Below, in pieces: positions 1,251-43,067 of a DNA stretch of 44,227 nt. The DNA is from Candidatus Shapirobacteria bacterium (GTDB lineage Bacteria > Patescibacteriota > Microgenomatia > UBA12405 > BS750m-G30), in NCBI GenBank assembly GCA_016783425.1, contig JADHWP010000002.1:1-44227 (forward strand), given 5' to 3'. The notes under the pieces are model-generated. The model had not been told where the DNA came from. It ran no database searches and was given only the letters and a program-made list of their open reading frames with translations. Numbering within the stretch: the stretch's first letter is position 1; every line of letters starts with the position of its first letter. The position numbers and the translations under genes are program-made.

Positions 1251-2372
1251 TCACTTTCCCCATACCCCAGGAATTTGGGCGGGGCAGTTTGGGGCTTGGC
1301 CGGCCTGGTCAATGAGATTTTTTTCAATAAAATAGCCGCGGCGCTGGATAAGGGGCTGCCGATTTTGGGGACAGTAAGTAGTGCTTCCCTCTAAATCATC
1401 AATGTTACCGGTATAAACGTAATTAAGGCCTATCTCCAGGCAAATCTTTCTCGCTTCTTTTAGAGTTTTTTCCGGAGTGGGCGGGAGATTAAGCAGTTTG
1501 TATTTAGGCCAAAAGCGGGACAGATGAAGAGGGACATCAGGGCCGAGATTATCTTTAATCCAAGTACAAAGTTGGGCAACTTCTTCTAAGTTATCAGTAA
1601 ACCCGGGAACAACAAGATGTACCAGCTCCAGCCATTTGCCCGATTGGTGAACGGTTTTAATGGTTTCCAGCACTGGTTCCAAATTGCCCTTGATTAGGGT
1701 TTGGTAGGTTTCAGCCTTGATGGATTTAAAATCAATTTTAACCGCGTCAAGATAAGGCAGGAGTTGTTTTAAGGGTTCCTGGTTAATGTAGCCGGCGGTG
1801 ATAATAACGGTTTTTAAATTATTTTGTTTGGCAAGCTTAGCAATATCAAGCATATATTCATACCAGACAGTCGGCTCATTATAGGTAAAAGCAACTGCCT
1901 CGGCCTTGGCTTTTAAAGCCTCATCCACCACCTGCTGGGGAGTCATGTCGAGTGAGGCAAGATCTTCCGGTTGGCGGTGGGCAATGTCCCAGTTTTGGCA
2001 ATATTGGCAGTCAAGATTACACCCGGCAGTAGCTAAAGAGTAAATCTTGGTTCCGGGCAGAAAATGGTAAAGCGGTTTTTTCTCAATAGGATCAACATTA
2101 ATTGATACCGGTTTACCATAAACCAGGCTATAGAGCTTGCCGTTGATATTTTCCCTTGCTTTACAAATTCCTCTTTGGCCGGGGGCTAAAACACAGCGGT
2201 TAGGACAAAGTTGACAGCGGACATTGCCATTATCTAAAGTTTCATAAAAACTGGCTTCTTTTAAATCTTGAGGATTAGGAGTTTTTTGAAAACTAGCCTT
2301 TTGTTTGATAACGACCAAAACAGAAAGGAGCACCCCAAAAATGATCACTAACAGCCCAAGATTCTTTTTCAT
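1251..2372 (-). CDS. AmmeMemoRadiSam-system-type radical SAM enzyme (pyruvate formate-lyase activase-like), with N-terminal membrane anchor
   Basis: Contains CQLCPNRC...GICKAREN, DPIEKKPLYHFLPG and the radical SAM triad CNLDCQYC. The N-terminus MKKNLGLLVIIFGVLLSVLVVI is a hydrophobic anchor or signal. Confidence 0.8.
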   Translation of the reverse strand: MKKNLGLLVIIFGVLLSVLVVIKQKASFQKTPNPQDLKEASFYETLDNGNVRCQLCPNRCVLAPGQRGICKARENINGKLYSLVYGKPVSINVDPIEKKPLYHFLPGTKIYSLATAGCNLDCQYCQNWDIAHRQPEDLASLDMTPQQVVDEALKAKAEAVAFTYNEPTVWYEYMLDIAKLAKQNNLKTVIITAGYINQEPLKQLLPYLDAVKIDFKSIKAETYQTLIKGNLEPVLETIKTVHQSGKWLELVHLVVPGFTDNLEEVAQLCTWIKDNLGPDVPLHLSRFWPKYKLLNLPPTPEKTLKEARKICLEIGLNYVYTGNIDDLEGSTTYCPQNRQPLIQRRGYFIEKNLIDQAGQAPNCPAQIPGVWGK

Positions 2373-2395: not shown

Positions 2396-2842
2396 ATGAG
2401 CGATTTTAAGGTTTTGGCCTGGTTGGACTGTCCTTTCGAAAGAACCAATGATCCTTATCCGGGCTTGTGCGATCTTTATCTTGACACTAATCAAAACCAA
2501 ATTTGCGACCACAGCGAAGCTGGTAGTTCCTCTGTTTTTTGGTGGCTTTTTTTGCCGGCAGCCGCTTATTTTATTTACTGGTACCTGGTTAACAAAACTA
2601 GCTTGAGAAGAAAAAGAGGGTTTTTGAGCCTGGTGGGTTTTAAGTATTTTTGGAATTTGGTTCTGCTTCTCCTTTTTATCCCGGCCGGGCTTTTTGGTTT
2701 GCTCTGGGCTTTGGGAGTTAAAACCGAATTAATTTTGTCCTGGCATAATAATTTAGGAATTGTTTTTGTGGTAATTAGTCTGCTTCATATTTTTGGTCAC
2801 TTAGCCTATTTTTTAAAAACTTGGCGGATTTTTAGAAAATAA
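2396..2842 (+). CDS. Small membrane protein with Cys-rich N-terminus and His-containing TM helices (DUF4405-like)
   Basis: 148 aa. The N-terminus has C12, C25 and C37, followed by 3-4 hydrophobic helices, the last with HIFGHLAYF. TATAAT at 2383-2388 lies 7 nt before the ATG, suggesting a leaderless mRNA. Confidence 0.5.
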   Translation: MSDFKVLAWLDCPFERTNDPYPGLCDLYLDTNQNQICDHSEAGSSSVFWWLFLPAAAYFIYWYLVNKTSLRRKRGFLSLVGFKYFWNLVLLLLFIPAGLFGLLWALGVKTELILSWHNNLGIVFVVISLLHIFGHLAYFLKTWRIFRK

Positions 2843-3428
2843 TTAAGAGATTTCGGGCTACAAAATAAAAGCCGGCAATTATTCCCGCCAAGCGCCCCAT
2901 TTTTTGAATTAAAGGAAATTTAGTAAACACGCCAAAAAGAGTAGCTGGGATAAGATAAATACTGGTACCCACAAAAAAAGCCAGAAAATAAAAAAGAGAA
3001 TTAATAGCGCTTCTTAAACTAAAAACATGAGTCAAAGAAGCCATTAGCGGGGGACAGACATTAACTCCCGTTAAAAAGCCCAGTAGAAGCGGCCATTTAA
3101 TTTTTTGAAAGATTTTCAAAGAGCAGAATTTTTTATCAATTTGACCCAGGCCAAAAAGAATAAGCGTAATTCCCATCCAAAGATTAACCAGGGAAATAAT
3201 GGTGTGAATCAGCTGGCTCTGGATCTTTTGGCCAAGATAGCCGAAAGTGAGACCAAAAAGAAAATAACCGATTAGCCTGCCGGCCGAAAATTGCAAAACC
3301 AGGTAAAAGCTTTTTTTACCGCTTCTTTTTTGAGAGAAAAGGATAGGCAGAAAAACAGGCAGGCAAAGACCAAGGCAGTAAACCCCGACTGACAAACCGG
3401 TTAAAAAACCAAAAGTTAAATTTTCCAC
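2832..3428 (-). CDS. Polytopic membrane protein, TauE/SafE or DsbD_2-like
   Basis: 198 aa and about 6 TM helices. Cys pairs sit within helices (YCLGLCLPVF, GVNVCPP). It converges on and overlaps the previous gene by 11 nt. Confidence 0.5.
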   Translation of the reverse strand: MENLTFGFLTGLSVGVYCLGLCLPVFLPILFSQKRSGKKSFYLVLQFSAGRLIGYFLFGLTFGYLGQKIQSQLIHTIISLVNLWMGITLILFGLGQIDKKFCSLKIFQKIKWPLLLGFLTGVNVCPPLMASLTHVFSLRSAINSLFYFLAFFVGTSIYLIPATLFGVFTKFPLIQKMGRLAGIIAGFYFVARNLLIIF

Positions 3429-6446: not shown

Positions 6447-6571
6447 TGAAGGTGTTCCTGCTGATTTGTTATTTTCCTGTTCGTCGAAGCTTTGGGGTTT
6501 AAATTAACCTCATAGTTAAAATTTGAATTTACTCTATGTTACAATAGCGGAAGCAGGGAGAATGGTTTGAA

Positions 6572-7194: not shown

Positions 7195-7218
7195 TGATAT
7201 TTGCAAGATGGAATTTTA

Positions 7219-17655: not shown

Positions 17656-17961
17656 GTGAGTAGCAAATTTCTTAAAAAAAAAGAGGATTTTATTTGCGCG
17701 GTTTGCGGTAAGAAGGTAGTTGGAAGCGGGTTTACCAATCATTGTCCGGAATGTTTGTGGAGTAAACATGTGGATATTAATCCGGGTGATAGGGCCGCGG
17801 ATTGCAAAGGCTTAATGGAGCCGATTGGGGTGGAGCAAAAAAAGGGCGAGTGGCGGATTTTATTCAAATGCCAAAAATGCGGATATAAACATTGGAATCG
17901 GACCTCTCCCAGCGACAAGTTAACAACCGTCATTCTGAATTTAGTTCAGAATCGATCCTGA
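17656..17961 (+). CDS. RNHCP-domain zinc-ribbon protein
   Basis: Contains CAVCGKK...FTNHCPECLWSKHVD...CQKCGY. The last 10 or so codons and the stop lie inside the REP-like element at 17929-17978. Confidence 0.65.
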   Translation: MSSKFLKKKEDFICAVCGKKVVGSGFTNHCPECLWSKHVDINPGDRAADCKGLMEPIGVEQKKGEWRILFKCQKCGYKHWNRTSPSDKLTTVILNLVQNRS

Positions 17962-17978
17962 AACGAGTTCAGGATGAC
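17929..17978. repeat. REP-like double hairpin (GTCATTCTGAA...TTCAGGATGAC)
   Basis: The first hairpin is ATTCTGAA (17932-39) / TTCAGAAT (17945-52). The second is ATCCTGAA (17955-62) / TTCAGGAT (17968-75). The outer arms are GTCAT/ATGAC. Confidence 0.8.
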
Positions 17979-19053
17979 GCTAAACAAGTTCGTAAAATGT
18001 AATAAAGTGAAAAAGATTAAACTTTTTAAAAAACTGGGCGATGATTTAGTTCAGTGTCAGGCGTGTTCCTGGTATTGTCGGATTGCTTCGGGGAAAACTG
18101 GAATTTGCGGAGTGCGGGAAAATAAGGGTGGAGAATTAAATCTTCCAGTTGACGGCAAAACCACAGGCTTATCAGTTGATCCGATTGAGAAAAAGCCGCT
18201 ATATCATTTTCTTCCCGGGTCTAAAGCTCTATCTTTTGGCACCCTGGGTTGTAATTTTGGCTGCTTATTTTGCTTAAACGCTTGGGCTTCCCAAAGCCCG
18301 AAAAAAGTTAAAAAGAAAGAGCAGTTAAAAACCCTGATTGACCAGTGTTTAATTAAACTAACTCCCAAACAGATTGTCCAGGCCGCCCTGGACAGTGGTT
18401 GTCAGAGTATTGCTTATACTTATAACGAACCGGCTGTTTTTGCCGAGTTTGCTTACGAAACGATGAAGTTAGCCAAAAAAGCCAACCTTAAAAATATTTG
18501 GGTGAGCAATGGGTTTGAGTCAAAAGAAACTTTTAATTTAATTAAAAGTTATTTGGACGGGATTAACATTGATTTAAAAAGCTTTAATCCTGAATTTTAC
18601 AAAAAGATTTGTAAAGGAAAATTAAAACCGGTTTTGGAAAACATTAAGCGTTTTTTTAAAGCCGGAATTTGGGTGGAGATTACTACTCTAGTAATTCCCG
18701 GGGAAAATGATAGTAAAAAAGAATTAAAACAAATAGCCGGATTTATTAAAGATATCTCTTCGGATATTCCCTGGCACCTAAGCGCTTTTACCCCTGATTA
18801 TTTAATGAAAAATAAACCAAGAACAAATAAAGAGAAATTATTAGAAGCGCGGGAAATTGGCAAAAAAGCGGGCTTAAATTATGTTTATCTGGGCAATATC
18901 TGGGATTTGGATAATAAATATTTTTCCACTTATTGTCCAAAGTGTGATTTTTTATTGATTGAGCGGTCTGCTTATCGAACGGTAAAAATAATGGGTTTAA
19001 AAAAAGGTAAATGCCGAAATTGCGGGATTAAGATTTTGGGAATATGGCGGTGA
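17974..19053 (+). CDS. AmmeMemoRadiSam-system-type radical SAM enzyme, second paralog
   Basis: Contains CQACSWYC...GICGVREN, DPIEKKPLYHFLPG and CNFGCLFC. ATG 17974 lies inside the REP element, so GTG 18007 (VKKIKLFKK) is an alternative start. Confidence 0.8.
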   Translation: MTLNKFVKCNKVKKIKLFKKLGDDLVQCQACSWYCRIASGKTGICGVRENKGGELNLPVDGKTTGLSVDPIEKKPLYHFLPGSKALSFGTLGCNFGCLFCLNAWASQSPKKVKKKEQLKTLIDQCLIKLTPKQIVQAALDSGCQSIAYTYNEPAVFAEFAYETMKLAKKANLKNIWVSNGFESKETFNLIKSYLDGINIDLKSFNPEFYKKICKGKLKPVLENIKRFFKAGIWVEITTLVIPGENDSKKELKQIAGFIKDISSDIPWHLSAFTPDYLMKNKPRTNKEKLLEAREIGKKAGLNYVYLGNIWDLDNKYFSTYCPKCDFLLIERSAYRTVKIMGLKKGKCRNCGIKILGIWR

Positions 19054-24351: not shown

Positions 24352-24612
24352 TTATAGCATGTAGCTTAACGTCTCAATTGTCACCCCTTTTTAACATCTG
24401 AACTGTCCTCTCCAAATGTCATCCCCGAAATAAATTCGGGGCAGGCTCTGAACTCGTTTCAGGATCTGTTTTCTTATCACTTAAGATTCTGAACTAAATT
24501 CAGAATGACTTTTGAAACAATCTCACTAAAAAGTGCTGAACCATATTTAGAGGGTAGACAATTGAGACGTTAAATCAATAGGACAATTGAGAAGTTAAAC
24601 TACATATAGCAA
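24352..24612. repeat. Composite palindromic element: 17-24-nt inverted repeats bracketing a cluster of REP-like hairpins
   Basis: TTAACGTCTCAATTGTC (24366-24382) has a perfect reverse complement at 24557-24573. A third, near-identical inverted copy, GACAATTGAGAAGTTAAAC, lies at 24582-24600. Its flank (ctacatatagca) mirrors the rtcB promoter flank. Confidence 0.8.
24418..24509. repeat. Cluster of three REP-like hairpins
   Basis: CCCCGAA (24423-29) / TTCGGGG (24435-41). CTGAA (24448-52) / TTCAG (24458-62). ATTCTGAA (24486-93) / TTCAGAAT (24499-24506) followed by GAC. The last hairpin is the reverse-orientation homologue of 17929-17952. Confidence 0.8.
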
Positions 24613-33562: not shown

Positions 33563-34197
33563 AGATTATTCCCGTGATTTTGACTAATTCTTCTCCAGAC
33601 TTAGAGAAGAAAATTAACTTTTTAGAAGGAAAAACCGATTGGGTGCAGATTGATGTGACTGACAGCAAGTTTGGGGGGGAAGCCACTTTTCCTCTAGAGT
33701 GGCTGGGCCAATATCAGGACAAGCAGTTTTTTTGGGATATTCATTTAATGGTCGATAATCCTTTTGCCTGGGTGGAAAAGTGCAATTTAATTATCGCCCA
33801 AAGGGTAATCGGTCAAATTGAACTAATGAATGATCAGCTTGATTTTTTGGATCGAGTGGAGAGTGAGGGAATGGAAGCGGGGCTGGCGGTTGACCTGGCT
33901 ACTCCCTTGGAAAGGATTGATCAGGAGGTTTTCTGGCGCTGTAGTGTGATTTTGCTTTTAGGAGTTAAAGCTGGCCGGGGTGGACAAGAGTTTGAGAAAA
34001 GTTGCTTGAAGAAGATTAGGCGTTTGATGGAGATGCGGGAGGAGCTAAAAGCTGATTTTGCCATTGGGGTAGACGGAGGGATTAATAAAAATAACCTTTT
34101 GGAAATACAAGAAGCCGGAGCGGATATTGCTTTTGCGGGCAGTGCGATTTGGAACAGGGAAATTAAACTCAAAAAAGACCAGGAAAAGATTATTTAA
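33559..34197 (+). CDS. Ribulose-phosphate 3-epimerase-like TIM-barrel protein
   Basis: Contains QIDVTDSKFGGEATFP, DIHLMVDNP and VDGGINKNN...GADIAFAGSAI. It is divergent from canonical Rpe. Confidence 0.55.
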   Translation: MKIIPVILTNSSPDLEKKINFLEGKTDWVQIDVTDSKFGGEATFPLEWLGQYQDKQFFWDIHLMVDNPFAWVEKCNLIIAQRVIGQIELMNDQLDFLDRVESEGMEAGLAVDLATPLERIDQEVFWRCSVILLLGVKAGRGGQEFEKSCLKKIRRLMEMREELKADFAIGVDGGINKNNLLEIQEAGADIAFAGSAIWNREIKLKKDQEKII

Positions 34198-35585
34198 GGC
34201 TGTTTTTCAAGAGTGTAAAGAATGGCTATTTCGTCTTCATAGTTTTTTTCCCAGGGATAACCAGGATTGTTTTTAAGCTCTAAGTCTAAAAAAGTATTTT
34301 TGCCAATTAGCAGGCAATCAGCTTTATACGCTTCCAACTTTTGCTCAAAACCAGACTGGGCTTGAAGAATTTCCAGGTAGATAGTATAGGGACTTTTGCC
34401 GCTGGGGGTAGACCAAGTGGGCATGCGGCCGTCTACAAAAATTTTTCTGCCTGGCAAATGCCAGGCTAAGTATCCGCCCCACTCATAAGCATTAAAAATG
34501 TTTTGGCAAAGATCAGGATTGCCTTTTAAATATTGGGTGGCCTGACAGGGCAAGCTCCACTGGCTGTTTTCACAAATAGTTGACCAGCCGGGGTTGGCAG
34601 GAGGAAGTTTAGTTAATCGCCAGGTTAAGGAAGTGGAGAAAATAAGGAAGATTATTATTTTGCTGATCCGGATTTTTTTTGCTTGAAATTGAAACAGGTG
34701 GTTAGCTAAATAAACAGAAGAAAGGCCAAAAGCGGCTAAATTGCGCCGAGCTTTTAGGGCTAATATTAGAAAAAATAAATAGCTGAGAAAAAGAAAGATA
34801 AAGTTTTTTTTCTTAAGCAGTTTATTTATTTTAACTTGGCTAATAAGGCCAATAAAGAGGGTAGAAACACTAATGATGATTAGTAAAATGCTTATCTTAG
34901 TTGGCTTTACCCATTCAGCAATCAGTTGGTTTAAGGGATACCAGGTATGGCGGTAAATCTCTTGGTAGTTCTCAAAACCGAAAGGATTAATTAGGGTAGC
35001 CAGAAAAGAAACAAAGATAATAATGAGGAGAGGGGTTATTTTTTCTTTTTTGTGAACTTTTCCTATTAAATAGAAAAAGAGCAAAATGAAACCCAAGATA
35101 AAACCACCATGAAGATTAGCCCAAAGTAAAAAAAGCAAAGGAAGGAGAAATAATCTTTTTTTATTTAAAAGAAGAAAGTAAAGCAGGGAAATGCCTAGAA
35201 AGGAGAAAAGCTGGCTACGCCAGCCAAGATTAGTTACTGGCAGGCTGATGAGAAAAAGAAAAATAAAACTAAGGGCTAGAAAGAGAGTGTTGCTCTTGGG
35301 AAAGGTTTTGATAATTAACCAAAAGACAGTGGTGAGCAGTAAGGCGTTACCGATAACTAAGCTCCAAAAACCAAAATAATTGAAAAGAAAGAAAGTTAGG
35401 AGCTGGTAGAGTGAGTAGGCGTGTTTCCATTGGTAGTTGGTTAGGAAAAATCCTATTTGGTTAATTTTAAAAACTTGGTGGTTTTGAAATATCTGCTGGC
35501 CGTAGCGCAGATGCCAGCCCAAGTCCGTATCTATGGGTAAAATTAAATAGCAAAGAAAAACACTAGCTAAAAGTAATTTTTTCAT
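34194..35585 (-). CDS. Polytopic membrane protein with C-terminal extracytoplasmic domain (GT-C-like glycosyltransferase candidate)
   Basis: 463 aa. The first loop is PIDTDLGWHLRYG, an acidic motif before WHL. About 10-12 hydrophobic helices are followed by a soluble tail of about 130 aa. It overlaps the upstream gene by 4 nt. Confidence 0.45.
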   Translation of the reverse strand: MKKLLLASVFLCYLILPIDTDLGWHLRYGQQIFQNHQVFKINQIGFFLTNYQWKHAYSLYQLLTFFLFNYFGFWSLVIGNALLLTTVFWLIIKTFPKSNTLFLALSFIFLFLISLPVTNLGWRSQLFSFLGISLLYFLLLNKKRLFLLPLLFLLWANLHGGFILGFILLFFYLIGKVHKKEKITPLLIIIFVSFLATLINPFGFENYQEIYRHTWYPLNQLIAEWVKPTKISILLIIISVSTLFIGLISQVKINKLLKKKNFIFLFLSYLFFLILALKARRNLAAFGLSSVYLANHLFQFQAKKIRISKIIIFLIFSTSLTWRLTKLPPANPGWSTICENSQWSLPCQATQYLKGNPDLCQNIFNAYEWGGYLAWHLPGRKIFVDGRMPTWSTPSGKSPYTIYLEILQAQSGFEQKLEAYKADCLLIGKNTFLDLELKNNPGYPWEKNYEDEIAILYTLEKQP

Positions 35586-37135
35586 GGATTAACTAATTCC
35601 GGCTGATACTGGTTATTAATATAAATCGGGATCATTTCTGCTTTAATTATTTTGTTTTTACTCAAAATAATTTTTCCTAAAGCCCCGCTTCTAGTATCTT
35701 GGGACCAAAGCTGGTCAAAAACAAAATTTCCCAAAGAATAAAAAATTGGTTTTCCCTCTATGTATTCCAGGGGTTGGGCAACATGGGGATGGTGGCCAAT
35801 AATAATATCCGCTCCCGCTTCAATTGCCAGTTGGGCAATTTCTTTTTGGCGAAAGTTGGGCTGGCCTTGATATTCCTCTCCCCAGTGAAAATTAACTATT
35901 ACCCAATCAGCCTGGGAGTCAACTTTTTCTATTTCTGCTTGAAGCCTGGTTTTGTCTAAAGGGGCAAGGGTATCGTCAAAACCTAAGAAAACAAGATCTA
36001 TTTCCTTAATGGTTCGAAAATCTATTTTGCCCAAGCCAAAGTATTTTATCTTTTGATTATCCAGGGCTTGGATAGTTTCATCTAGGCCTTGGGGGCCAAA
36101 ATTATTAATATGGTTGTTGGCAAGATTAAGAGCATCAAAACCGGCACTCGTTAAGCCGTTGAGGTTTTGAATCTCTCCGCAAAACTTAAAGCCGGTACGT
36201 AATTGGGGGCAATCACTGATTACCGGACCTTCTAAATTGGCAATTGCCCAATCAGCTTCTTGAATAACCGAAGCAATTTTTTCAAAAGGAAAGTGGAGGT
36301 TTTGTTTTTGGATGATCGTATAGTTTATTTCCCGGGAAAGGGAAAGATCGCCAGTGGCAATCAGAGTAATTTGAGCAGGGGGGGTAGGGGAAAGAGGAAT
36401 TAAAGTAGGGGTAAAAGTAGAATCAGAAGGACGGAAGGCAATAAAAAAGTAGCTAGTGCCTTCTTGATATTTGTTTTTTAAAACTATTGGTTTTAGGTTT
36501 TCTGGTTTAGTTAATTCTAAAAAAGAGATTATGCAGGTTGGGCAATCAAGGTAATCTGAATTTAGGGTGCTGATTAGTTGATAGTTGTAATTTTCAATAG
36601 CCTGAAGAGTGACTTGATCGTTTTGGGCACTAGTTTTTTGATCAAGGTAGTGGGCAAAGTCAACTGAAGCAATCATTAAGGTTTTTTGTTGTTCAATTTG
36701 CCCCTTTAGATTATTGGTCCAGTTTATTATTTGCTCAACTTCCTGTCCTTTGCGAAAAATAAAGGGGATAATTTGGGCCCGAGGGTATCTTTTTTTTAAA
36801 AGTGGTTTTAGAGTTTGAATGCTGTGCTCTTCTTCTATTAATTCTTCGTTAATATCGGTTCCTAGTTTATGGGCAAGATAATTATTGGTGCTAATAAGAT
36901 AGGGACCAATATCTTGATGATTGGGGCCAAAAATAATAATGGTGGTTATTTGTGAAAGTTTGGGACCGGATAAAAGAATATCGTTTATTTGTGAGGAGAA
37001 AAGGGGATTATGAGGAAGGATAAAAGCTTTATTTATTTGTTTAATTTCGGGTTTAGTAACCAAGTTAAAGGTGAAGAATAAAACCAAAATAATTGCTCCT
37101 AGCAAAAGGAGAAAAATAGTATTCTTTTTAAGCAT
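35582..37135 (-). CDS. Fusion protein: Memo-like (AmmeMemoRadiSam protein B family) N-domain plus CapA/PgsA-type domain, with N-terminal anchor
   Basis: The N-half has ILPHNPLFSS, IIIFGPNHQDIG, EEEHSIQTLKPLLKK and MIASVDFAHYL, matching the Memo pattern PHAGY / GPNH / EHS / SxDxxHY. The C-half has ATGDLSLSR, ANLEGP, NLANNH, VNFHWGEEY, GHHPHV and YSLGNFVFDQ, typical of CapA. Confidence 0.65.
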   Translation of the reverse strand: MLKKNTIFLLLLGAIILVLFFTFNLVTKPEIKQINKAFILPHNPLFSSQINDILLSGPKLSQITTIIIFGPNHQDIGPYLISTNNYLAHKLGTDINEELIEEEHSIQTLKPLLKKRYPRAQIIPFIFRKGQEVEQIINWTNNLKGQIEQQKTLMIASVDFAHYLDQKTSAQNDQVTLQAIENYNYQLISTLNSDYLDCPTCIISFLELTKPENLKPIVLKNKYQEGTSYFFIAFRPSDSTFTPTLIPLSPTPPAQITLIATGDLSLSREINYTIIQKQNLHFPFEKIASVIQEADWAIANLEGPVISDCPQLRTGFKFCGEIQNLNGLTSAGFDALNLANNHINNFGPQGLDETIQALDNQKIKYFGLGKIDFRTIKEIDLVFLGFDDTLAPLDKTRLQAEIEKVDSQADWVIVNFHWGEEYQGQPNFRQKEIAQLAIEAGADIIIGHHPHVAQPLEYIEGKPIFYSLGNFVFDQLWSQDTRSGALGKIILSKNKIIKAEMIPIYINNQYQPELVNP

Positions 37136-40100
37136 TACTGAATAATTATATCAGGTGGAGGGCTAGAGAGATTAAAAGAATCTTTAGAAACAGAATGATA
37201 AATAATTGCCGGTTCAAAGGTGAAATTACCTTTATTTATTGGTCTGGCGAGAAAGTAAATAGGATCGGAAGGATCGGCCCTAAAAACTAATTGATTGCCT
37301 TCTTGGAATAGGGGGTAAGAATAGTGTTTATTGCTTTTTTCTTCTATCGTTTGCCAGGAGTAAGGGGCTTTAATATAGCGCAATCCTGAAGGAAGACTAA
37401 TGGTTACCAGATAGGGCTCGCTCAAGGCGTTGGCATTAATTTGGGATTGAGCCTTAATTTCAACCACTTGTCCGGTGGATATCTTTCCTTGAGGATTGCT
37501 GGTTAAGTTTAGTTTTATTTGTTGATCGTAGTCACTCTCATTGGGCTGGTAACCTTCCCACCATTGGGCAATATAACCTAAACGTCCGGAAACCGGTTCA
37601 ATTTCAAAACTGTCGGTTTGGGATGGGGAAACTAGTATTTGATAAGCCTTTCCAGACTCTAAGGTTTGTTTTTTAGTTTTGCCGTCCAGGCGGTAGGAAA
37701 AAACTCCCGGATCAGTTAGGCTTTTTTCTAAAAATGATTTTAAAAAGATTGCTTTTTCAGTGACGTATAAGTTTTCCTGGCTCGGATTATCATTTAAAAA
37801 GTACCACATTTTTTCAGCCAAATCATTGCCGATTTTTCCGCCTAAAACCATTGCCAGAGCAGTAGTTTCAATGTCCATTTCTTTGCTTTTTCCTAGATTA
37901 ACTACCTCTTGGTAAAGTTCCTGTCCTGTCGCTTGGTCTCCAAGAGCGCTAGCGGCTAATCCTAAAAATATTTTACCCAAAGTAGTATTTTCCTCTTTTT
38001 TTAGATTAATGATCGTGTTTAAAACCGGTTCTTCAAGTTCAGCCAGTCCCCAAAGAGCAGCGCTTGCCCGCTCAATTGATTTTTCTTGATTAAACTGTTC
38101 CCAAAGATACCTTTTTAGACTAATCTTGTCAGTTTCTTCCAGTCCCAGGGCCGCTATTTTACTGGAAAGGAAAAGATCCGGACTGCTCTGAGGGGTAAGG
38201 ACGAAGCCTCCTTCTCTTTGGTAGTGACTGATATTGCTCTCTTTAGTTAAATTAGTACCGAAATAGTTGTTTAAAAGTTGACGTACCTTCAGTTGAGTAG
38301 CCAATCTGTCAACCCGTTCGTTTTTCCCGTAAATATCAAGTCGGGAAAGAGCGATTAAATAGGGATACCAAAAACCTTGGCTTTTGTCGACTACGGTTAC
38401 GACGGCTGTTTTTTGGGTAGACCAGGCGGGTTTAATTTTTTGATTAAGTTCTTGATACTCGCTTACTTCCCGGCTTAACCGGCTTTTAACCACCTTAATG
38501 GTTTTTGCTAACCCGTCTTTTTTGCCTTGATTCTCTGCCCATATTTCAATTTTATGTTCTCCTGGTTCTAAGCTTTTAAGAGAAAAATCAACTGGCTCAA
38601 AACCTTTTTTGCTAATCTTTTGGACTCCAATTCCCAAACTGGGAGCTTTTAGGGTGTAATCAATATTCTGATCATTGTCAATTAAATCACCATAAGCAAT
38701 AGCAGTAATTTGGGGTTGGTCACTGCTAATAAATTCCTCATTGCTAATTAAATTTACAAAGATTGGTTTAGAAACAGGGATTAAATATTCTCCCTCTCCT
38801 GCTTCTAAAGCTTCGCTCAAAGCAACGCTGGTAATTCGCCAGGAAGTAATATTGTCAGGAAGCTTAAAACTTAAATTAGCCTTTCCTTGACTATCGGTTT
38901 CTACTTCTTGAAAAACCGCGGTATTTTGGAAATTTTCTCTTAATCCTCCTCCCCCTCCGCCTTCGGCTTGTAATTCTTCTTGAGGTCGAGGATGAGAGGT
39001 GTAGCTAATAATTCGACCTTCGCCAATGGAACGGTAAAGGGTGGAAAGAAGATTAGGAGAGGGGATGGCGTCAAGATCACTTAGAGCTTCATCTACGGCG
39101 GAAACTAAAAGTCGAGTCTGGCGAGGTTGGTTTTGGTAATCAGCAGCCAGAATTTCTACTTTTACTTCCTCGCCGGGCTCGTATTTTTCTTTATTAGTTT
39201 TTATTTCTAAATTTAATTCTTTATTTTCTGAATTAAAGCGCAAACTTAAGGCTCCCCGGCTAAACATGTCCCAATTTTGGCTGCTCCAGTAAGTATTGCC
39301 GGTAAAGCAAATAGCTCTGATTTCCAGGTTGGGAATAAATTCTTCTTTAAATTCAAGCTCTAATTGGTTGCTGGTTTGGTTTTTTCGAAAGACATTTTTC
39401 CCGTTTTGAGAACCAATAATAAGGAAGTGAAAGGACTCTTCGGGGAGAGGAGATTGGGTGGCTAAGGTTAGTTTGACTTTTTCGCCTACTTTGAAGCTAG
39501 TAGCGTTGCTTTCGATAGTTAACTGACTGGTCGCTTCTCTTTGGCTGCCGGCCCATAGGTGTAATTTAGTATTTTCGATTCGACCGTTTTCATCTTCAGC
39601 CGTTAAGATAATTTCATAGCTTTTTTCTTCTTGGGCCGGGAAATTAAGAATAGCCTCCCCTTGAGCGTTGGTCGTAAGCTCTTCCTCTTTGATCATTTCC
39701 TGCCTTTTTTCATAACGGTATTGCTTAATTATTCTTTTGTCAATTGGGTCGTAGACTTCTCCGGTTTCAATTTTTTCTTGCCAAGTATAATAGACCATTG
39801 TTTTTATTTTTTGGCTAGCAACCGGCTCTCCTTTTTTGTCCCAGGGACTAGCTTGGAGCTTTTCAAGATCTAACTTAATCGCTTTAATAGTGGTGGTGGC
39901 CTGGTTATTTTCCCATTCGGTTTTTCCGCTTAAATTAATTTTCGGGCCGAAAGTATAAAAAGATACCGAGGTGTTTATTTCTGCCTCTTGGGGGAGTTTA
40001 GGATGAAAGTCAAGGTTCCAATAATCAGGCCAATATTCCCGACTTTCGTAATTAGTTTTTACCTCAAGAGTTGCTTCACCTATCCGGTTAGTGGTAATTT

Positions 40101-41961
40101 CCCCCTTGGTGTCTTTTTGGTAATTCTGCCAGGCAAGAGTAGTGTTGCTTACAGGAGTTCCGTCCCAAAAACTGGCTTTTATTTTAATTTTATTAGTCTC
40201 TCCGGCCCAAATAGCTACTCTTTCGGGGATAGCCTCGATTTTATAAGCCGGTTTAGAAAAGGTTTGAATGCTAAAGTATTTGCTGTTGATCAAAGTTTTT
40301 TCATCAAAAATACCTATTGAGTAAGAACCGGGAGGTAGTTGGCTTAGGTCAAATTGGCTGATAAAAGTTCCTTGAGGAGAAAGACTGATTTCTTTTTCTT
40401 CGATTAAGGTAACTCCTTGGTCAACTTTCTCGCTCCAAAAACTATAATAACCTTTTGCTAACTTAGCTTTTGCCTGATTGATTCTCCCTTTTTCTCGGGG
40501 TTTAATAATTCCCCAAAAATTAATTTTATCTTGAGGGGCGTATAGTTGGCGGTCAAAATAAAGGTAGGACCAGTATTCGTTAGCCTTAACCTGAACTTTA
40601 CTTTCGGTTGGCCCGTTTGAAGACCAATTTGAAGTCCCTAAAAGCAGAACATAAGCCTTATTTGCTCCTTGCTCTAAAGTTAAGAGATGATTTTTACTTT
40701 CTTTTAAAGAGTTGGGGGTTTTAATTTCTGCCATTCCTTCGTTGTCTGTTTGGGCAATTTTTTGGCTATCTTGGAAAATGGCCGTGCCCCCGGCCGGTTG
40801 CTTGGTTTGCAAATCATTAGTCCAGAAAACAGTTTCCTTGTCCCCGACCCATAAATACCAAGACAAAGGAGTAGATTGGATTAAAACTTGGCTGGAATGA
40901 GTTCCCGGATTTTCTATTTCCAGAAAATAGTATCCTGGGGTTAATTTTTCGGGAAGCTCAAAGTAGGATTGAGGAGCGGTGTCGTTTATTCTTTTTACTT
41001 CCAAATCAAACTCGCTATTTGGAGGCTGATTAATAGAACAGCGGTGGAGGGTTTGGCTGTATTGAGCCCAGTCAGGCAAACTAATCTTTTCTTCTAAGCA
41101 GTTTTTAAAGTTATGTTCGCTTACTTGGTAAAGTTTTCCCTTAGTTTGGCTACTGGGGGGTTGCCAGTTACCAATTAAAATTGTCGGAGGGAGGTCAGGA
41201 GATGTTTCAAAAAGGGATCGGGTAAAATTAAACCGAGGAGTTCTTACTTTCTCTTCCTCTCCGGTTTCGAATTGGAAAACATAATCTTGGGCTAGGGTTT
41301 CCTCACTCCCGCTTAAAACAAGTCCCTTTTTAACCTTAACCGTGTAAATCGTTGTTGAAGTAAGTTTTTGGGGCACAAAAACGAGGGTGTTTTGATGTTT
41401 TTCCCAATGACCATCAAGAGAAGGGTTAATTTCCAGGTAATTTTGGTCCGGGGTAAATTCGGGATTATTAAAGTAAATTTCAATTGGGCTGTTAAGGGGG
41501 ACATCGGTTATTTTATCAGCCGGAAGACTGCCTGTAATCTCCAGGGGAGTTTGGACTTGGAAAGCCCAGGAAATTTCTTGAGCTTGGACTCCGCCAATCA
41601 ACGAGGGAAGTTTAAATTGGTAAATTTCTCCTTTAGCTAATTCTTTACTGGGGGTAATTTCCCATTCGTTCTCTTTGGTTTGTTTTATTTCTAAAGAAAG
41701 AGCAGGAATAATCGTTAGACTTTGTTCCAGCTCGGCAGTATTTAGAGGCGCTTGGCTAGAAAGGAGAAAAGTAGTGTTAGGTAGAATTCCGCTGTTATCT
41801 TTTTTGGTGGCAACTAAAGTAATATCTGCTTGGGAGTTTAGGTTAATTTTTTTACCTAAATTGGGCAGGTGTGAAGAAAACTTAGGCCAAATAAAAAATT
41901 TAATTAAAGTCAGCAGGAGAGCAATTCCTAAAATGATTAAAAGCCTTTTTTTTATCATCAT
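37135..41961 (-). CDS. Alpha-2-macroglobulin-family giant envelope protein (1608 aa), apparently without a thioester
   Basis: Has an N-terminal anchor, repeated beta-rich MG/Ig-like segments, and the A2M hallmark GLRENFQNTAVFQEVETDSQGKANLSFKLPDNITSWRITSVA. No CxEQ follows it. Its 1-nt overlap with the next gene suggests coupling. Confidence 0.7.
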   Translation of the reverse strand: MMIKKRLLIILGIALLLTLIKFFIWPKFSSHLPNLGKKINLNSQADITLVATKKDNSGILPNTTFLLSSQAPLNTAELEQSLTIIPALSLEIKQTKENEWEITPSKELAKGEIYQFKLPSLIGGVQAQEISWAFQVQTPLEITGSLPADKITDVPLNSPIEIYFNNPEFTPDQNYLEINPSLDGHWEKHQNTLVFVPQKLTSTTIYTVKVKKGLVLSGSEETLAQDYVFQFETGEEEKVRTPRFNFTRSLFETSPDLPPTILIGNWQPPSSQTKGKLYQVSEHNFKNCLEEKISLPDWAQYSQTLHRCSINQPPNSEFDLEVKRINDTAPQSYFELPEKLTPGYYFLEIENPGTHSSQVLIQSTPLSWYLWVGDKETVFWTNDLQTKQPAGGTAIFQDSQKIAQTDNEGMAEIKTPNSLKESKNHLLTLEQGANKAYVLLLGTSNWSSNGPTESKVQVKANEYWSYLYFDRQLYAPQDKINFWGIIKPREKGRINQAKAKLAKGYYSFWSEKVDQGVTLIEEKEISLSPQGTFISQFDLSQLPPGSYSIGIFDEKTLINSKYFSIQTFSKPAYKIEAIPERVAIWAGETNKIKIKASFWDGTPVSNTTLAWQNYQKDTKGEITTNRIGEATLEVKTNYESREYWPDYWNLDFHPKLPQEAEINTSVSFYTFGPKINLSGKTEWENNQATTTIKAIKLDLEKLQASPWDKKGEPVASQKIKTMVYYTWQEKIETGEVYDPIDKRIIKQYRYEKRQEMIKEEELTTNAQGEAILNFPAQEEKSYEIILTAEDENGRIENTKLHLWAGSQREATSQLTIESNATSFKVGEKVKLTLATQSPLPEESFHFLIIGSQNGKNVFRKNQTSNQLELEFKEEFIPNLEIRAICFTGNTYWSSQNWDMFSRGALSLRFNSENKELNLEIKTNKEKYEPGEEVKVEILAADYQNQPRQTRLLVSAVDEALSDLDAIPSPNLLSTLYRSIGEGRIISYTSHPRPQEELQAEGGGGGGLRENFQNTAVFQEVETDSQGKANLSFKLPDNITSWRITSVALSEALEAGEGEYLIPVSKPIFVNLISNEEFISSDQPQITAIAYGDLIDNDQNIDYTLKAPSLGIGVQKISKKGFEPVDFSLKSLEPGEHKIEIWAENQGKKDGLAKTIKVVKSRLSREVSEYQELNQKIKPAWSTQKTAVVTVVDKSQGFWYPYLIALSRLDIYGKNERVDRLATQLKVRQLLNNYFGTNLTKESNISHYQREGGFVLTPQSSPDLFLSSKIAALGLEETDKISLKRYLWEQFNQEKSIERASAALWGLAELEEPVLNTIINLKKEENTTLGKIFLGLAASALGDQATGQELYQEVVNLGKSKEMDIETTALAMVLGGKIGNDLAEKMWYFLNDNPSQENLYVTEKAIFLKSFLEKSLTDPGVFSYRLDGKTKKQTLESGKAYQILVSPSQTDSFEIEPVSGRLGYIAQWWEGYQPNESDYDQQIKLNLTSNPQGKISTGQVVEIKAQSQINANALSEPYLVTISLPSGLRYIKAPYSWQTIEEKSNKHYSYPLFQEGNQLVFRADPSDPIYFLARPINKGNFTFEPAIIYHSVSKDSFNLSSPPPDIIIQ

Positions 41962-41979: not shown

Positions 41980-42480
41980 CTATCCCTTTTTAAGGATACC
42001 TTTTTCAATTGAATGGGAAAGCAAAATAAAAGTTAAGCCAGTAGAAACCATAAAAATCGTCGGCCAGACAAAGCCAACAGTCGGTAAAGTAGCACTGCCA
42101 CTTGAGCTGATTGAATCCCAGTCAACGTTATCGCTTCCCAAAGTCAAGGTGAAGGAAATTGTTGAGCCAGCATTAGTTAAGGTAATACTATGGTCTCCGG
42201 CGCTTAAAGTTGCCGGAGGAGTAAAGCTCCAATTTCCATCAATGTCAGTCGTGGCCTGGTAAGTTTCGGCGTCAATCGTGATATCTATGGCGCTGGAAGC
42301 AGCCGCTTCACCGGCAAAGGTGGGCTGTAAACTTGAATACCACCATTGGGGATAGAGTTTGCCATCAGTGTTTAAATTGCCAATTGATTTAAGGTTAAAA
42401 CCTGAAGCAAAAACCGAAGAAAAATTTAAGAAAAGAAAGGCGAGAGCGAGAACAACCAGGGCAGTTAGTTTTTTTCTCAT
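41980..42480 (-). CDS. Secreted Ig-like-domain protein with C-terminal sorting-signal-like anchor
   Basis: Has the signal peptide MRKKLTALVVLALAFLFLNFSSVFA and a beta-rich domain (TTDIDGNWSFTPPATLSAGDHSITL). The C-terminus is LPTVG, about 19 hydrophobic residues, then the basic tail KGILKKG. Confidence 0.5.
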   Translation of the reverse strand: MRKKLTALVVLALAFLFLNFSSVFASGFNLKSIGNLNTDGKLYPQWWYSSLQPTFAGEAAASSAIDITIDAETYQATTDIDGNWSFTPPATLSAGDHSITLTNAGSTISFTLTLGSDNVDWDSISSSGSATLPTVGFVWPTIFMVSTGLTFILLSHSIEKGILKKG

Positions 42481-42503
42481 TGCTAGTATAGTATCATTCT
42501 ATT

Positions 42504-43067
42504 ATGGAGCAAATAAGTAGTCAAGGGAAGAAAGTAGCTATTTTTGGCTATTCTCAAGCTAAAAAAGAAGACAAGCTTTATCAGGAGGCTTTTGAGGTTT
42601 GCCGGATTTTAGCCCAGGAAGGCTATACTATTGTTAATGGGGCGGGCCCGGGGGTAATGCGGGCGGCCACCGAAGGAGCAAAAGCGGGAGGCGGAAAAAC
42701 GATTGGCGTTGCTTTTAAAAGTGAGGGCATGAGTAATTTTGAAGGCCGGGATTTGGAAAACAAGGTGGATGAGCTGATCATAACGGACAATTATTTAGAG
42801 CGGACTTTAAAATTATTGGAAATAGGGGATGTGTTTGTGATTTTTAACGGAGGCACAGGGACGATTTCCGAGTTTGGAATGGCCTGGGGTTTGGCTCGGC
42901 TCTATTATGGGACTCACGAACCATTGATTTTATATGGCTCCTGGTGGTATGAGGTTATGGAAGTTTTTGGGAAAAATATGAAGCTTAGAGATGAAGAACT
43001 GCGGGTTTACCGGATTGTAGATTCGCCCAAAGAGGTGTTGGAAGAAATAAAGGGCTTGATCGGCTAA
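42504..43067 (+). CDS. LOG-family (TIGR00730-type) nucleotide phosphoribohydrolase-like protein
   Basis: Contains VAIFGYS, IVNGAGPGVMRAATEGA and FNGGTGTISEF. Confidence 0.75.
   Translation: MEQISSQGKKVAIFGYSQAKKEDKLYQEAFEVCRILAQEGYTIVNGAGPGVMRAATEGAKAGGGKTIGVAFKSEGMSNFEGRDLENKVDELIITDNYLERTLKLLEIGDVFVIFNGGTGTISEFGMAWGLARLYYGTHEPLILYGSWWYEVMEVFGKNMKLRDEELRVYRIVDSPKEVLEEIKGLIG

What the first reader, a model, noticed from the sequence alone, without database searches (positions are those of the whole stretch)
35582..37135. Memo-like domain fused to CapA, with two AmmeMemoRadiSam radical SAM paralogs elsewhere in the window and no AMMECR1
The AmmeMemoRadiSam system is defined by co-occurrence of AMMECR1 (A), Memo (B) and a dedicated radical SAM enzyme, and its function remains unknown. 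This window has two radical SAM paralogs of that type. One (1251-2372) has an N-terminal membrane anchor and is flanked by Cys-rich membrane proteins. The other (17974-19053) follows an RNHCP zinc-ribbon gene. The only Memo-like sequence is fused to a CapA domain and embedded in the A2M operon, and no AMMECR1-like ORF is visible. Such a rearranged, membrane-associated version could hint at the substrate, for example a surface polymer or protein.
Basis: partly seen in the sequence, partly recalled or inferred. Interest (0 to 1): 0.6.

Follow-up and report, generated by a model that had tools for sequence, protein, structure and literature searches.

The report
Surface Memo–CapA enzyme beside macroglobulin
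A membrane-anchored surface protein that joins a Memo-type metal-binding domain to a CapA-type enzyme domain belongs with the giant protease-trap-like protein encoded just before it, not with the radical-SAM system it was linked to, whose ordinary Memo–AMMECR1 partner lies elsewhere in the same small genome.

Summary
The ORF at 35582-37135(-) encodes an N-terminal anchor, a Memo-like domain and a CapA domain. Both radical SAM genes score as AmmeMemoSam_rS. No AMMECR1 lies in the window.

The central inference fails.
- The 624-kb Patescibacteria genome has a canonical Memo::AMMECR1 (B::A) fusion on contig C28.
- In order-level relatives, B::A sits in one cluster with the anchored radical SAM paralog, the DsbD_2 protein, the Cys-rich membrane protein and sometimes RNHCP.
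- The Memo domain of the fusion belongs to a separate clade (SH-aLRT 100). Its recurring neighbour is an A2M-like surface protein (16 of 40 loci) or a 578-aa family without a Pfam match (18 of 40). It is never a radical SAM gene (0 of 40, 0 of 80).
- 36 of 44 genomes with this clade have no rS.

Four relatives carry Big13 -> CapA-only -> GT-C at this locus, so an A2M+Memo module entered and fused in frame to the resident CapA. Contigs from an independent study bridge all four junctions.

The best reading is an outward-facing two-metal-centre enzyme that partners a thioester-less macroglobulin. Its chemistry is inferred only. This scan found the A2M-Memo pair, and the anchored AmmeMemoRadiSam cluster, before on other DNA. 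My three searches found the pair in no paper, but one key paper could not be read.

The parts
42496..42524 (-). Best promoter-like site (TTGACT-17-TAGAAT, 10 of 12), just upstream of the first gene of the four-gene operon
   Evidence: The number of such sites in the region is not above the shuffles (14 found, mean 17.6), so this is a consensus match only.
41980..42480 (-). 166-aa Ig-like (Big_13) protein with hydrophobic N- and C-terminal segments. It is the first gene of the operon and part of the resident module.
   Evidence: Pfam Big_13 38.3 bits. Hydrophobic segments at residues 7-25 and 135-153. Conserved directly before CapA-only in relatives G401 and G402.
37135..41961 (-). 1608-aa A2M-like protein with an N-terminal anchor, no thioester motif and no Hint insert
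   Evidence: A2M_BRD 52.7, A2M 41.9 and Big_5 36.6 bits. No CxEQ motif, 3 Cys, hydrophobic helix 7-25. Relatives carry a Hint domain between the positions of residues 1000 and 1008, which this copy lacks.
37061..37117 (-). N-terminal membrane anchor of the fusion (residues 7-25)
   Evidence: Hydropathy 2.77 over 19 residues. Modelled as a helix at residues 2-25. Hydrophobic N-termini are present in the 19 aligned fusions.
36428..37036 (-). Memo-like domain (residues about 34-236) of the A2M-linked clade, shortened by about 35 residues
   Evidence: H42, H73, D159 and H162 are invariant and align with MEMO1 H49, H81, D189 and H192.
36374..36427 (-). Pro/Thr-rich linker (residues about 237-254). 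This is the fusion junction.
   Evidence: pLDDT under 50 at residues 240-250. Its end matches the linker of CapA-only relatives.
35582..36373 (-). CapA / PGA_cap domain (residues about 255-517, plus the stop codon), the resident gene of this locus
   Evidence: PGA_cap 206 bits. Best fold match is MslH 8gq9, E 5.2e-17. It is 68-77% identical to CapA-only relatives against 53% to fused P0004.
34194..35585 (-). 463-aa polytopic membrane protein, probably GT-C-like. It is the last gene of the operon and part of the resident module.
   Evidence: No Pfam match even at E up to 5. At least 7 hydrophobic segments. ESM Atlas leads only: PMT_2, Dpy19, STT3 and RgtA-like neighbours. Conserved after CapA-only in G401, G402, G405 and G429.
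1251..2372 (-). Membrane-anchored AmmeMemoSam_rS paralog (rSAM1). It belongs to a separate system and is not a partner of the fusion.
   Evidence: TIGR04337 379 bits. Helix at residues 4-22. Orthologs of 58-69% identity in 10 other genomes of the order.
2396..3428 (.). 148-aa Cys-rich membrane protein (2396-2842, +) and DsbD_2 protein (2832-3428, -), conserved neighbours of rSAM1
   Evidence: DsbD_2 is adjacent in 9 of 9 relatives' loci and the 148-aa protein in 7 of 9.
17656..19053 (+). RNHCP zinc-ribbon gene (17656-17961) followed by the canonical-type AmmeMemoSam_rS (17974-19053)
   Evidence: This paralog is the closer one to the rS of rS-Memo-AMMECR1 operons (54% identity to L163). RNHCP lies beside B::A in L204 and L240.

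Best explanation
The ORF encodes an N-terminally anchored enzyme, most likely facing outward, with two separate metal centres. The first is a Memo/LigB-fold domain and the second is a CapA (calcineurin-fold, MslH-like) domain. It is the partner of the thioester-less A2M-like surface protein encoded immediately upstream and translationally coupled to it. It is not protein B of the AmmeMemoRadiSam system.

Shown:
- The domain folds and the conserved metal and catalytic residues.
- A Memo clade distinct from canonical B.
- Recurrent pairing of that clade with A2M-like genes and recurrent fusion to CapA.
- The origin of this copy, by entry of an A2M+Memo module between Big13 and the resident CapA gene.

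Inferred:
- The entry probably happened by recombination inside CapA. The Memo domain sits in a clade of nine rows, all Memo::CapA fusions by their precomputed or scanned Pfam domains, while the CapA domain is of the resident type.
- The protein sits on the cell surface beside the macroglobulin, and the two domains act on a peptide or protein substrate there. The substrate could be the macroglobulin itself, what it holds, or a wall peptide. The CapA domain would do MslH/PgsA-like metal-dependent acid/base chemistry such as epimerisation.

The two radical SAM genes belong with the B::A fusion on contig C28.
For: Domains and residues. The model has mean pLDDT 90.1 with a disordered linker at 240-250. 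Foldseek gives MslH 8gq9 at E 5.2e-17 for the C-terminal part and MEMO1 3bcz/7kq8 at about 5e-9 for the N-terminal part. H42, H73, D159 and H162 are invariant in 19 fusions and 22 Memo domains and align with MEMO1 H49, H81, D189 and H192. By my count of the alignment, window E302, N341, H342, H417 and H451 align with MslH E44, N87, H88, H259 and H295, whose roles are given in PMC10406935 (passages).

Context.
- A2M is directly upstream of Memo::CapA in L009, L011 and L026. In L008 it is upstream of a separate Memo gene.
- Of 40 loci around the best hits of the Memo profile in 401 Patescibacteria genomes, 16 have an adjacent A2M-like gene. In 13 of those 16 the order is A2M then Memo, mostly overlapping or a few bases apart.
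- 18 of the 40 have the L054_578 family, 6 have neither, and 12 have CapA fused.
- Radical SAM hits: 0 of 40 and 0 of 80 loci.

Separate clade. Exported and canonical Memo domains are split by a branch with SH-aLRT 100. The window groups with fused P0004 and P0010 (99), and then with a six-row group of further fusions that holds the A2M-linked L009, L011 and L116 (92).

Co-occurrence. 8 of 44 genomes with this clade (100 bits or more) have rS, against 47 of 401 overall.

Origin. G401, G402, G405 and G429 have CapA-only followed by GT-C at the syntenic locus, with no A2M or Memo there. Big13 directly precedes CapA in G401 and G402. The CapA domain is 68-77% identical to CapA-only proteins and 53% to fused P0004.

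Independent check. Contigs of run X6, from another study, bridge all four gene or domain junctions at near identity.

The canonical system lies elsewhere.
Against: - No experiment or structure shows that the fusion touches the A2M-like protein.
- Topology is inferred from the anchor, the Pro/Thr linker, the surface-type neighbours and the recalled outward orientation of PgsA. Charges flanking the helix are ambiguous.
- The Memo domain is shortened and only 49 bits on Pfam.
- MslH D91 and H261 are N345 and G419 here, so MslH-type epimerase chemistry is not assured.
- 24 of 40 Memo loci have no A2M-like neighbour by my tblastn queries, which shows the partner is not fixed.
- The 100-bit cut between the clades is my own choice. 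One canonical Memo scored 98.7 bits.
- Genomes are related, so the counts overstate independence.
- Earlier notes of this scan read the anchored AmmeMemoRadiSam set as envelope-facing. If that is right, separation by compartment cannot be used against a link to the radical SAM enzyme.
Confidence: 0.75

Rival explanations
1. First reader's reading. Memo::CapA is the protein-B component of a rearranged, membrane-associated AmmeMemoRadiSam system that works with the two radical SAM paralogs of the window and has no AMMECR1.
For: The N-domain passes the TIGR04336 cut-off (57.1 against 26). One rS paralog is membrane-anchored. If the anchored AmmeMemoRadiSam set faces the envelope, as earlier scan notes propose (not tested here), both could share a compartment.
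Against: A canonical B::A fusion lies on C28. In relatives the anchored rS clusters with that B::A (7 of 9 loci). No rS lies near this Memo clade (0 of 40, 0 of 80). 36 of 44 genomes with the clade lack rS. The clades are separated with SH-aLRT 100. The fusion lies 16.5 kb and 33 kb from the two rS genes.
Confidence: 0.04
2. The fusion has no functional meaning. It is a by-product of the integration event. The Memo domain serves the A2M-like protein, and the CapA domain keeps working only with its resident partners (the Big13 protein and the GT-C-like membrane protein).
For: The locus history shows two modules joined. The domains are linked by a disordered stretch, with pTM 0.55. In relatives CapA-only and stand-alone Memo work apart. 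The GT-C and Big13 genes are not found near Memo in other lineages (0 of 80 and 0 of 40 loci).
Against: Memo::CapA fusions recur. They make up 19 of the 120 best homologs and 12 of 40 genome loci. They span several branches of the Memo tree. This is the usual sign of shared function.
Confidence: 0.2
3. It is a CapA/PgsA subunit of a poly-gamma-glutamate capsule synthase, as database names suggest.
For: PGA_cap scores 206 bits. Sources name homologs 'poly-gamma-glutamate synthesis protein'.
Against: PgsB (TIGR04012) and CapC (PF14102) have no match in the genome, which is 90% complete. The positive controls ring in B. subtilis. CapA-family genes are very common in Patescibacteria (600 of the 604 stretches that matched the search patterns encode a relative).
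Confidence: 0.03
4. The fused ORF is an assembly or binning artefact.
For: No fusion was found in 40 close relatives, although the same-genus CapA gene is cut by its contig end. The genome shows another odd 74-nt duplication between contigs.
Against: Contigs of a run from an independent study bridge the Big13-A2M, A2M-Memo, Memo-CapA and CapA-GT-C junctions with 0 to 2 differences each. Two further runs hold the 9.8 kb in one piece, though these may be the source. Similar fusions exist elsewhere.
Confidence: 0.02

Closest known systems
Thioester-less (type II) bacterial alpha-2-macroglobulin systems, such as Pseudomonas MagD in the mag operon or the E. coli YfaS class (recalled, not tested here)
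   Same: A giant membrane-tethered multi-MG-domain protein without the CxEQ thioester, encoded in an operon with accessory envelope proteins.
   Different: The partners here are a Memo-fold and a CapA-fold metalloenzyme, not the Mag or Yfa proteins. The host is a single-membrane CPR bacterium. Many relatives carry a Hint domain at the end of the bait region (9 of 16 loci), but this copy does not.
MEMO1 / Memo family (PF01875; PDB 3bcz, 7kq8, 7l5c)
   Same: The fold matches (Foldseek E about 5e-9). The H/H/D/H metal site is conserved.
   Different: This domain is anchored and probably exported. It is shortened by about 35 residues, fused to CapA and linked to an A2M-like gene. Its clade is separate from the canonical AmmeMemoRadiSam protein B.
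MslH lasso-peptide epimerase and CapA/PgsA (PDB 8gq9; PMC10406935, PMC8179263)
   Same: MslH is the best structural match. The calcineurin-like fold and most metal and catalytic residues are conserved. PMC8179263 (passages read) proposes that CapA is a peptide epimerase.
   Different: The NF038314 score is 66 bits against a cut-off of 700. MslH D91 and H261 are Asn and Gly here. There is no lasso-peptide or PGA synthase gene context.
AmmeMemoRadiSam system (TIGR04335, TIGR04336, TIGR04337)
   Same: The N-domain passes the TIGR04336 cut-off. The window holds two true rS genes.
   Different: The real A and B of this genome are a separate fusion on C28. The Memo::CapA gene shows no linkage or co-occurrence with rS.

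Membership tests
AmmeMemoRadiSam system, protein B (TIGR04336) | Score above the curated cut-off over the whole model | tested here: inconclusive
   57.1 bits against a cut-off of 26, but only profile positions 112-216 of 270 match. The canonical B on C28 scores 234.9 bits over positions 1-268.
AmmeMemoRadiSam system, protein B (TIGR04336) | Gene linkage or genome co-occurrence with protein A (AMMECR1) and the dedicated radical SAM enzyme | tested here: not met
   No rS within about 8-10 kb in 0 of 80 and 0 of 40 loci. 36 of 44 genomes with this Memo clade have no rS. Canonical Memo genes, by contrast, lie within 2.5 kb of rS in 7 genomes, by the coordinates.
AmmeMemoRadiSam system, protein B (TIGR04336) | Same clade as canonical protein B | tested here: not met
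   In a quick maximum-likelihood tree of 48 Memo domains, 32 exported-type and 16 canonical rows are split by a branch with SH-aLRT 100. The careful search did not finish.
AmmeMemoRadiSam radical SAM enzyme (TIGR04337): the two window paralogs | Score above the cut-off of 220, and not a generic PflA-type activase | tested here: met
   379 and 342.9 bits. PFLA scores 87.4 and 59.1 bits against its cut-off of 231.75.
Memo family (PF01875) | Memo/LigB fold with the His-His-Asp-His metal site | tested here: met
   49.3 bits against 27. Foldseek to 3bcz, E 4.5e-9. H42, H73, D159 and H162 are invariant and align with MEMO1 H49, H81, D189 and H192. The Cys244 equivalent was not mapped.
CapA / PGA_cap (PF09587) | Full-length domain with the family's conserved motifs | tested here: met
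   206 bits over profile positions 1-255. The invariant GD, NLE, NNH, HWGxEY, GHHPH and SLGNF positions appear.
Poly-gamma-glutamate synthase complex (PgsBCA) | PgsB and PgsC/CapC encoded in the same genome | tested here: not met
   No match to TIGR04012 or PF14102 in the genome, which is 90.3% complete.
MslH-type lasso-peptide epimerase (NF038314) | Equivalog score, and both His/Asp dyads plus the Ca-binding residues | tested here: not met
   66.1 bits against a cut-off of 700. The equivalents of H88, H295, E44, N87 and H259 are conserved, and the invariant GD at residues 262-263 is the presumed D11 equivalent. D91 is N345 and H261 is G419.
Thioester-type (type I) bacterial A2M, ECAM/YfhM-like (the upstream gene) | CxEQ thioester motif | tested here: not met
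   No CxEQ in 1608 residues. The only Cys residues are at 288, 308 and 885. PBP1C linkage was not tested.
Alpha-2-macroglobulin superfamily (the upstream gene) | MG domains, bait-region domain and A2M domain | tested here: met
   A2M_BRD 52.7 bits, A2M 41.9 bits and Big_5 36.6 bits are above their cut-offs. MG2, bMG3 and MG4 are below theirs.

The most novel reading that the evidence does not exclude
The exported Memo clade, with CapA as a frequent fused helper, is the enzymatic partner of a third, undescribed kind of bacterial macroglobulin system. The two metal centres chemically process the macroglobulin or the peptides it holds, for example by epimerising or cleaving them at the cell surface. 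This would give the function-unknown Memo family its first fixed protein partner and a testable substrate.
Probability: 0.2. Interest if true: 0.75.

Novelty: new variant of a known kind. Interest (0 to 1): 0.5.

Why it matters
Memo (human MEMO1) and AMMECR1 are conserved from bacteria to humans, and neither has an agreed biochemical function. This window separates two uses of the Memo fold within one 624-kb genome.

- The canonical Memo::AMMECR1 fusion belongs to a membrane-associated radical SAM cluster.
- A distinct anchored clade travels with macroglobulin-like surface proteins and repeatedly fuses to a CapA-type enzyme.

The locus is also a clean natural example of how such a fusion arises. 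A module enters a resident operon and joins in frame. For CPR bacteria, which live attached to hosts, a surface protease trap with its own enzymes is a plausible part of the host interface.

The practical gain is a defined pair of ectodomains that can be expressed and tested together. It also corrects an annotation trap: TIGR04336 names this protein 'AmmeMemoRadiSam system protein B', although it is not part of that system.

Tried and rejected
- Complex prediction of A2M residues 820-1608 with Memo residues 30-240, each with its own alignment, gave no verdict (score 0.00 against a mark of 0.32). The N-terminal half of A2M and the CapA domain were not tried.
- The metagenome scan for close relatives of the fusion gave 6 loci, none close (29-54% identity, CapA part only). 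It added nothing on context.
- BLASTP of the alternative neighbour L054_578 against the window's A2M found nothing significant (best E 0.012). Pfam at E up to 5 gave only sub-threshold hits to its N-terminal helix region. That family stays unidentified.
- Pfam and NCBIfam gave nothing for the 463-aa downstream protein. The GT-C reading rests on ESM Atlas leads only.
- tblastn for RNHCP, the 148-aa protein and DsbD_2 near 11 rS genes sampled across the phylum found none. These associates are specific to the anchored paralog of this order.
- Literature searches. 'AmmeMemoRadiSam' gave 6 papers, listing only, none on function by title. 'alpha-2-macroglobulin' with 'Memo' and 'bacterial' gave 1 unrelated paper. 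'macroglobulin' with 'candidate phyla radiation' matched 6 papers, 5 listed; in PMC8080830 the one passage read mentions A2M-domain membrane proteins of Vampirococcus as possible defence, with no Memo. 'AMMECR1' with 'Memo' and 'radical SAM' gave 1 paper, with one passage citing Burroughs et al. 2019.
- The key paper is not held. Burroughs et al. 2019 (J Biol Chem 294:10211, PMC6664185) could not be read. I recall that it surveys Memo clades and their gene contexts, so it may already describe this clade.
- I first used the argument that a radical SAM enzyme must be cytoplasmic and so cannot meet an exported Memo. I dropped it after seeing that the anchored rS, the anchored B::A and DsbD_2 travel together. 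The topology of those proteins is open.


Full report
**What is in the sequence**

The window is contig C26 of a 623,686-base, 33-contig genome that is 90.3% complete. EF-P, a bacterial LeuRS, MacB/FtsX and a reduced gene set mark it as a bacterium. Homolog names and record titles point to Patescibacteria, among the Microgenomates and Shapirobacteria.

The flagged ORF 35582-37135(-) encodes 517 residues.
- Residues 7-25 form a hydrophobic helix.
- Residues about 34-236 form a Memo-like domain. It scores 49.3 bits on Pfam Memo, matching profile positions 111-239 only, and 57.1 bits on TIGR04336.
- Residues 257-475 match PGA_cap over its full length at 206 bits.

The gene is third in a four-gene minus-strand operon.
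- First is a Big_13 Ig-like protein (41980-42480).
- Second is a 1608-aa A2M-like protein (37135-41961). It carries A2M_BRD, A2M and Big_5 domains above cut-off and an N-terminal anchor. It has no CxEQ thioester motif and only 3 Cys.
- Third is the fusion itself.
- Fourth is a 463-aa polytopic membrane protein (34194-35585) with no family match. ESM Atlas gives GT-C-type leads only.
- The A2M stop overlaps the fusion's start by one base, and the fusion's stop overlaps the next start by four.

The two radical SAM genes are true AmmeMemoSam_rS members (379 and 342.9 bits against a cut-off of 220). The first has an N-terminal helix and Cys-containing membrane neighbours. The second follows an RNHCP gene.

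**The canonical system is present elsewhere**

AMMECR1 has one hit in the genome, on contig C28 (197.8 bits). It lies in the same open frame as a full-length Memo domain (194.8 bits). The protein scores 234.9 bits on TIGR04336 and 184 bits on TIGR04335.

Fusions of this B::A kind, about 500 aa long, filled all 120 listed homologs, and sources name many of them AmmeMemoRadiSam protein B/A. By inspection of the 20 sequences I fetched, 17 start with a hydrophobic helix, including this genome's own. The start codon in this genome is ambiguous, however.

Both rS genes of the genome lie in the window.

**The radical SAM genes belong with that B::A fusion**

Orthologs of the anchored paralog (58-69% identity, covering its N-terminus) occur in 10 other genomes among 121 sampled from the order. 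Eight genomes, counting this one, hold both paralogs.

I examined 9 relatives' loci (L204 and L237-L244).

| Neighbour of the anchored rS | Loci |
|---|---|
| DsbD_2 gene adjacent | 9 of 9 |
| 148-aa Cys-rich membrane protein | 7 of 9 |
| 642-aa protein on the opposite strand | 7 of 9 |
| B::A fusion next to the 642-aa gene | 7 of 9 |
| RNHCP beside B::A | 2 of 9 |
| Second rS paralog inside the cluster | 1 of 9 |

Two of these contigs end early. The 642-aa protein has no Pfam match, and the Atlas lead for it is membrane-bound spermine-synthase-like proteins (score 0.97).

In this genome the cluster is split. C28 carries a 74-nt perfect copy of the 3' end of the anchored rS (733-806), then a homolog of the 642-aa gene (2363-3877, 31.7% identity), then B::A (6239-7765). 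Whether this is a real rearrangement or an assembly join is open.

Across the phylum, none of 11 other rS proteins has an N-terminal helix, and none has these neighbours. L163 and L164 show the textbook rS-Memo-AMMECR1 operon.

**The Memo domain of the fusion is a different clade with a different partner**

Nineteen of the 120 best homologs of the fusion carry both Pfam domains. Their alignment has invariant H42, H73, D159 and H162, plus the CapA motifs.

Among 80 related genome loci, 7 encode the Memo-like part.
- Four of the 7 have an A2M-like gene beside it: L009, L011 and L026 directly upstream of a fusion, and L008 upstream of a separate Memo gene with CapA divergent.
- Two have 8 kb of upstream sequence without A2M.
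- One contig starts at the gene.

A profile of this domain found 61 of 401 sampled Patescibacteria genomes at E up to 1e-8. Of these, 44 score 100 bits or more. The canonical Memo of this genome scores 87 bits.

I fetched about 10 kb on each side of the 40 best hits outside this genome. Three further genomes and one second copy at 100 bits or more were not fetched.

| Feature in the 40 loci | Loci |
|---|---|
| A2M-like gene adjacent | 16 |
| of these, A2M upstream of Memo, mostly overlapping or within a few bases | 13 of 16 |
| of these, reverse order | 3 of 16 |
| Homolog of the 578-aa protein of L054 (no Pfam family) | 18 |
| Neither neighbour | 6 |
| CapA fused to Memo | 12 |
| Radical SAM hit | 0 |

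Only 8 of the 44 genomes also have rS, against 47 of 401 overall. In contrast, seven weaker, canonical-type Memo hits lie within 2.5 kb of an rS gene, by the coordinates.

A quick maximum-likelihood tree of 48 Memo domains separates 32 exported-type from 16 canonical rows with SH-aLRT 100. It places the window with fused P0004 and P0010 (99). These three are sister (92) to a six-row group of further fusions that holds the A2M-linked L009, L011 and L116. The careful search did not finish, and I set the group labels from context.

**How this copy arose**

In 40 nearest relatives, 30 have a CapA match. None is fused to Memo where the gene's start is visible; the same-genus CapA gene is cut by its contig end.

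At the syntenic locus, flanked by the same LOG/thioredoxin genes on one side and Rpe/GAPDH on the other, relatives carry the following order.
- The same-genus genome G401 and the same-family genome G402 carry Big13, then CapA-only, then GT-C.
- The same-order genomes G405 and G429 carry CapA-only then GT-C between the same flanks.
- None of the four has A2M or Memo between these genes.

Five order-level relatives keep A2M followed by a stand-alone Memo elsewhere in the genome.

The window's CapA domain is 68-77% identical to CapA-only proteins but 53% and 46% identical to fused P0004 and P0010. Its Memo domain is 41% and 38% identical to those two. CapA-only relatives have their own anchor and a Pro/Thr linker, and the end of that linker matches the window's junction.

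The simplest reading is that an A2M+Memo(::CapA) module entered between Big13 and the resident CapA and joined in frame. Recombination within CapA is the likely route, but this step is inferred.

The arrangement is not an assembly artefact. In a run from an independent study, separate contigs bridge the CapA/GT-C, Memo/CapA, A2M/Memo and Big13/A2M junctions with 0 to 2 differences each. Two other runs hold the whole 9.8 kb in one contig, but they may be the source.

**Structure and likely chemistry**

The AlphaFold model built with the 19-row alignment has mean pLDDT 90.1. Its pTM of 0.55 reflects two domains joined by a disordered stretch at 240-250.

Foldseek's best matches are as follows.
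- The lasso-peptide epimerase MslH (8gq9, E 5.2e-17).
- YmdB-like phosphoesterases.
- MEMO1 (3bcz, 7kq8; about 5e-9).
- LigB-type extradiol dioxygenases.

A profile alignment to MEMO1 pairs the window's H42, H73, D159 and H162 with the motifs that hold H49, H81, D189 and H192.

The alignment to MslH, by my own count of chain positions, pairs E302, N341, H342, H417 and H451 with E44, N87, H88, H259 and H295. MslH D91 and H261 are Asn and Gly here. The roles of the MslH residues come from passages of PMC10406935.

PMC8179263 (passages read) proposes that CapA of PGA synthesis is itself a peptide epimerase. The genome has no PgsB or CapC, so a PGA capsule role is unlikely.

I therefore commit to an outward-facing, two-metal-centre enzyme that works with the thioester-less macroglobulin on a peptide or protein substrate. 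The partnership is supported by gene context. The outward orientation and the chemistry are inferences.

**Comparison with what is known, and novelty**

The nearest described systems are thioester-less bacterial macroglobulins with accessory operon partners (recalled), MEMO1, and MslH/CapA. The fusion fails the linkage and clade tests for AmmeMemoRadiSam protein B, although it passes the model's score cut-off.

I found no paper describing an A2M-Memo or Memo::CapA pairing in three searches. The most relevant survey, Burroughs et al. 2019, could not be read.

This scan has noted the A2M-Memo pair on other genomes (e1-872633, e1-829618, e1-751159, e1-780962, e1-845678, e1-1302933, e1-1359126). 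It has also noted the anchored AmmeMemoRadiSam set with DsbD-like and SAM-domain membrane partners (e1-1350257, e1-870796, e1-4787239, e1-1305992). I reached both contexts from my own searches before reading those notes, and I tested them here only as described above.

**Verdict**

The central interpretation is not upheld. What remains is a new variant of bacterial macroglobulin systems, with a well-documented origin for this particular fusion. Interest is 0.5.

Noticed in passing
window 1251-3428; L204, L237-L244; G000 contig C28:733-7765: In this order the AmmeMemoRadiSam genes form a larger cluster. It holds DsbD_2, a Cys-rich membrane protein, an anchored rS paralog, a 642-aa membrane protein (Atlas lead: spermine-synthase-like), the B::A fusion and sometimes RNHCP. 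In this genome the cluster is split between C26 and C28, with a 74-nt perfect duplicate of the rS 3' end at the break.
   Followed up: partly
window 37135-41961 (around residues 1000-1008, about window 38940-38960); L009, L011, L026, L008, L116 and others: Relatives' A2M-like proteins carry a Hint/intein-like domain of about 135 residues. In L009, whose insert was printed, it starts with Cys and ends in His-Asn followed by Glu, so it lacks the usual +1 nucleophile. It sits at the end of the bait region in 9 of 16 A2M neighbours of Memo. The window's copy lacks it, and the site reads as a Gly run.
   Followed up: partly
L054:6043-7779 and 18 of the loci L116-L155: A protein family of about 578 aa with an N-terminal helix and no Pfam match is the alternative conserved neighbour of the exported Memo clade (18 of 40 loci). 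It shows no detectable similarity to A2M.
   Followed up: partly
G000 contig C28 (L001 469-616): The B::A fusion's open frame includes a hydrophobic helix upstream of the Memo domain, preceded by a TATAAT box. 17 of 20 fetched homologs have such a helix, so the canonical Memo::AMMECR1 protein of these bacteria is probably membrane-anchored. Its start codon and topology are unresolved.
   Followed up: partly
window 23186-24340: The RtcB ORF (384 aa) matches the Pfam model only from profile position 137 in its best stretch (two stretches reported). The N-terminal part may be divergent, split or interrupted.
   Followed up: no
window 2-137, 5539-5571 and 24360-24498: Short repeats are shared with other contigs. 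A 136-nt identical stretch at the contig start is shared with C14. A motif of about 30 nt is found on six other contigs. A 141-nt stretch is 91% identical to part of C20.
   Followed up: no
G402 contig C11:202129-202525 (L202, L203): A same-family relative has only AMMECR1 fragments with stops and no rS. The same-genus genome has neither. The AmmeMemoRadiSam set appears to be decaying or lost in close relatives.
   Followed up: no
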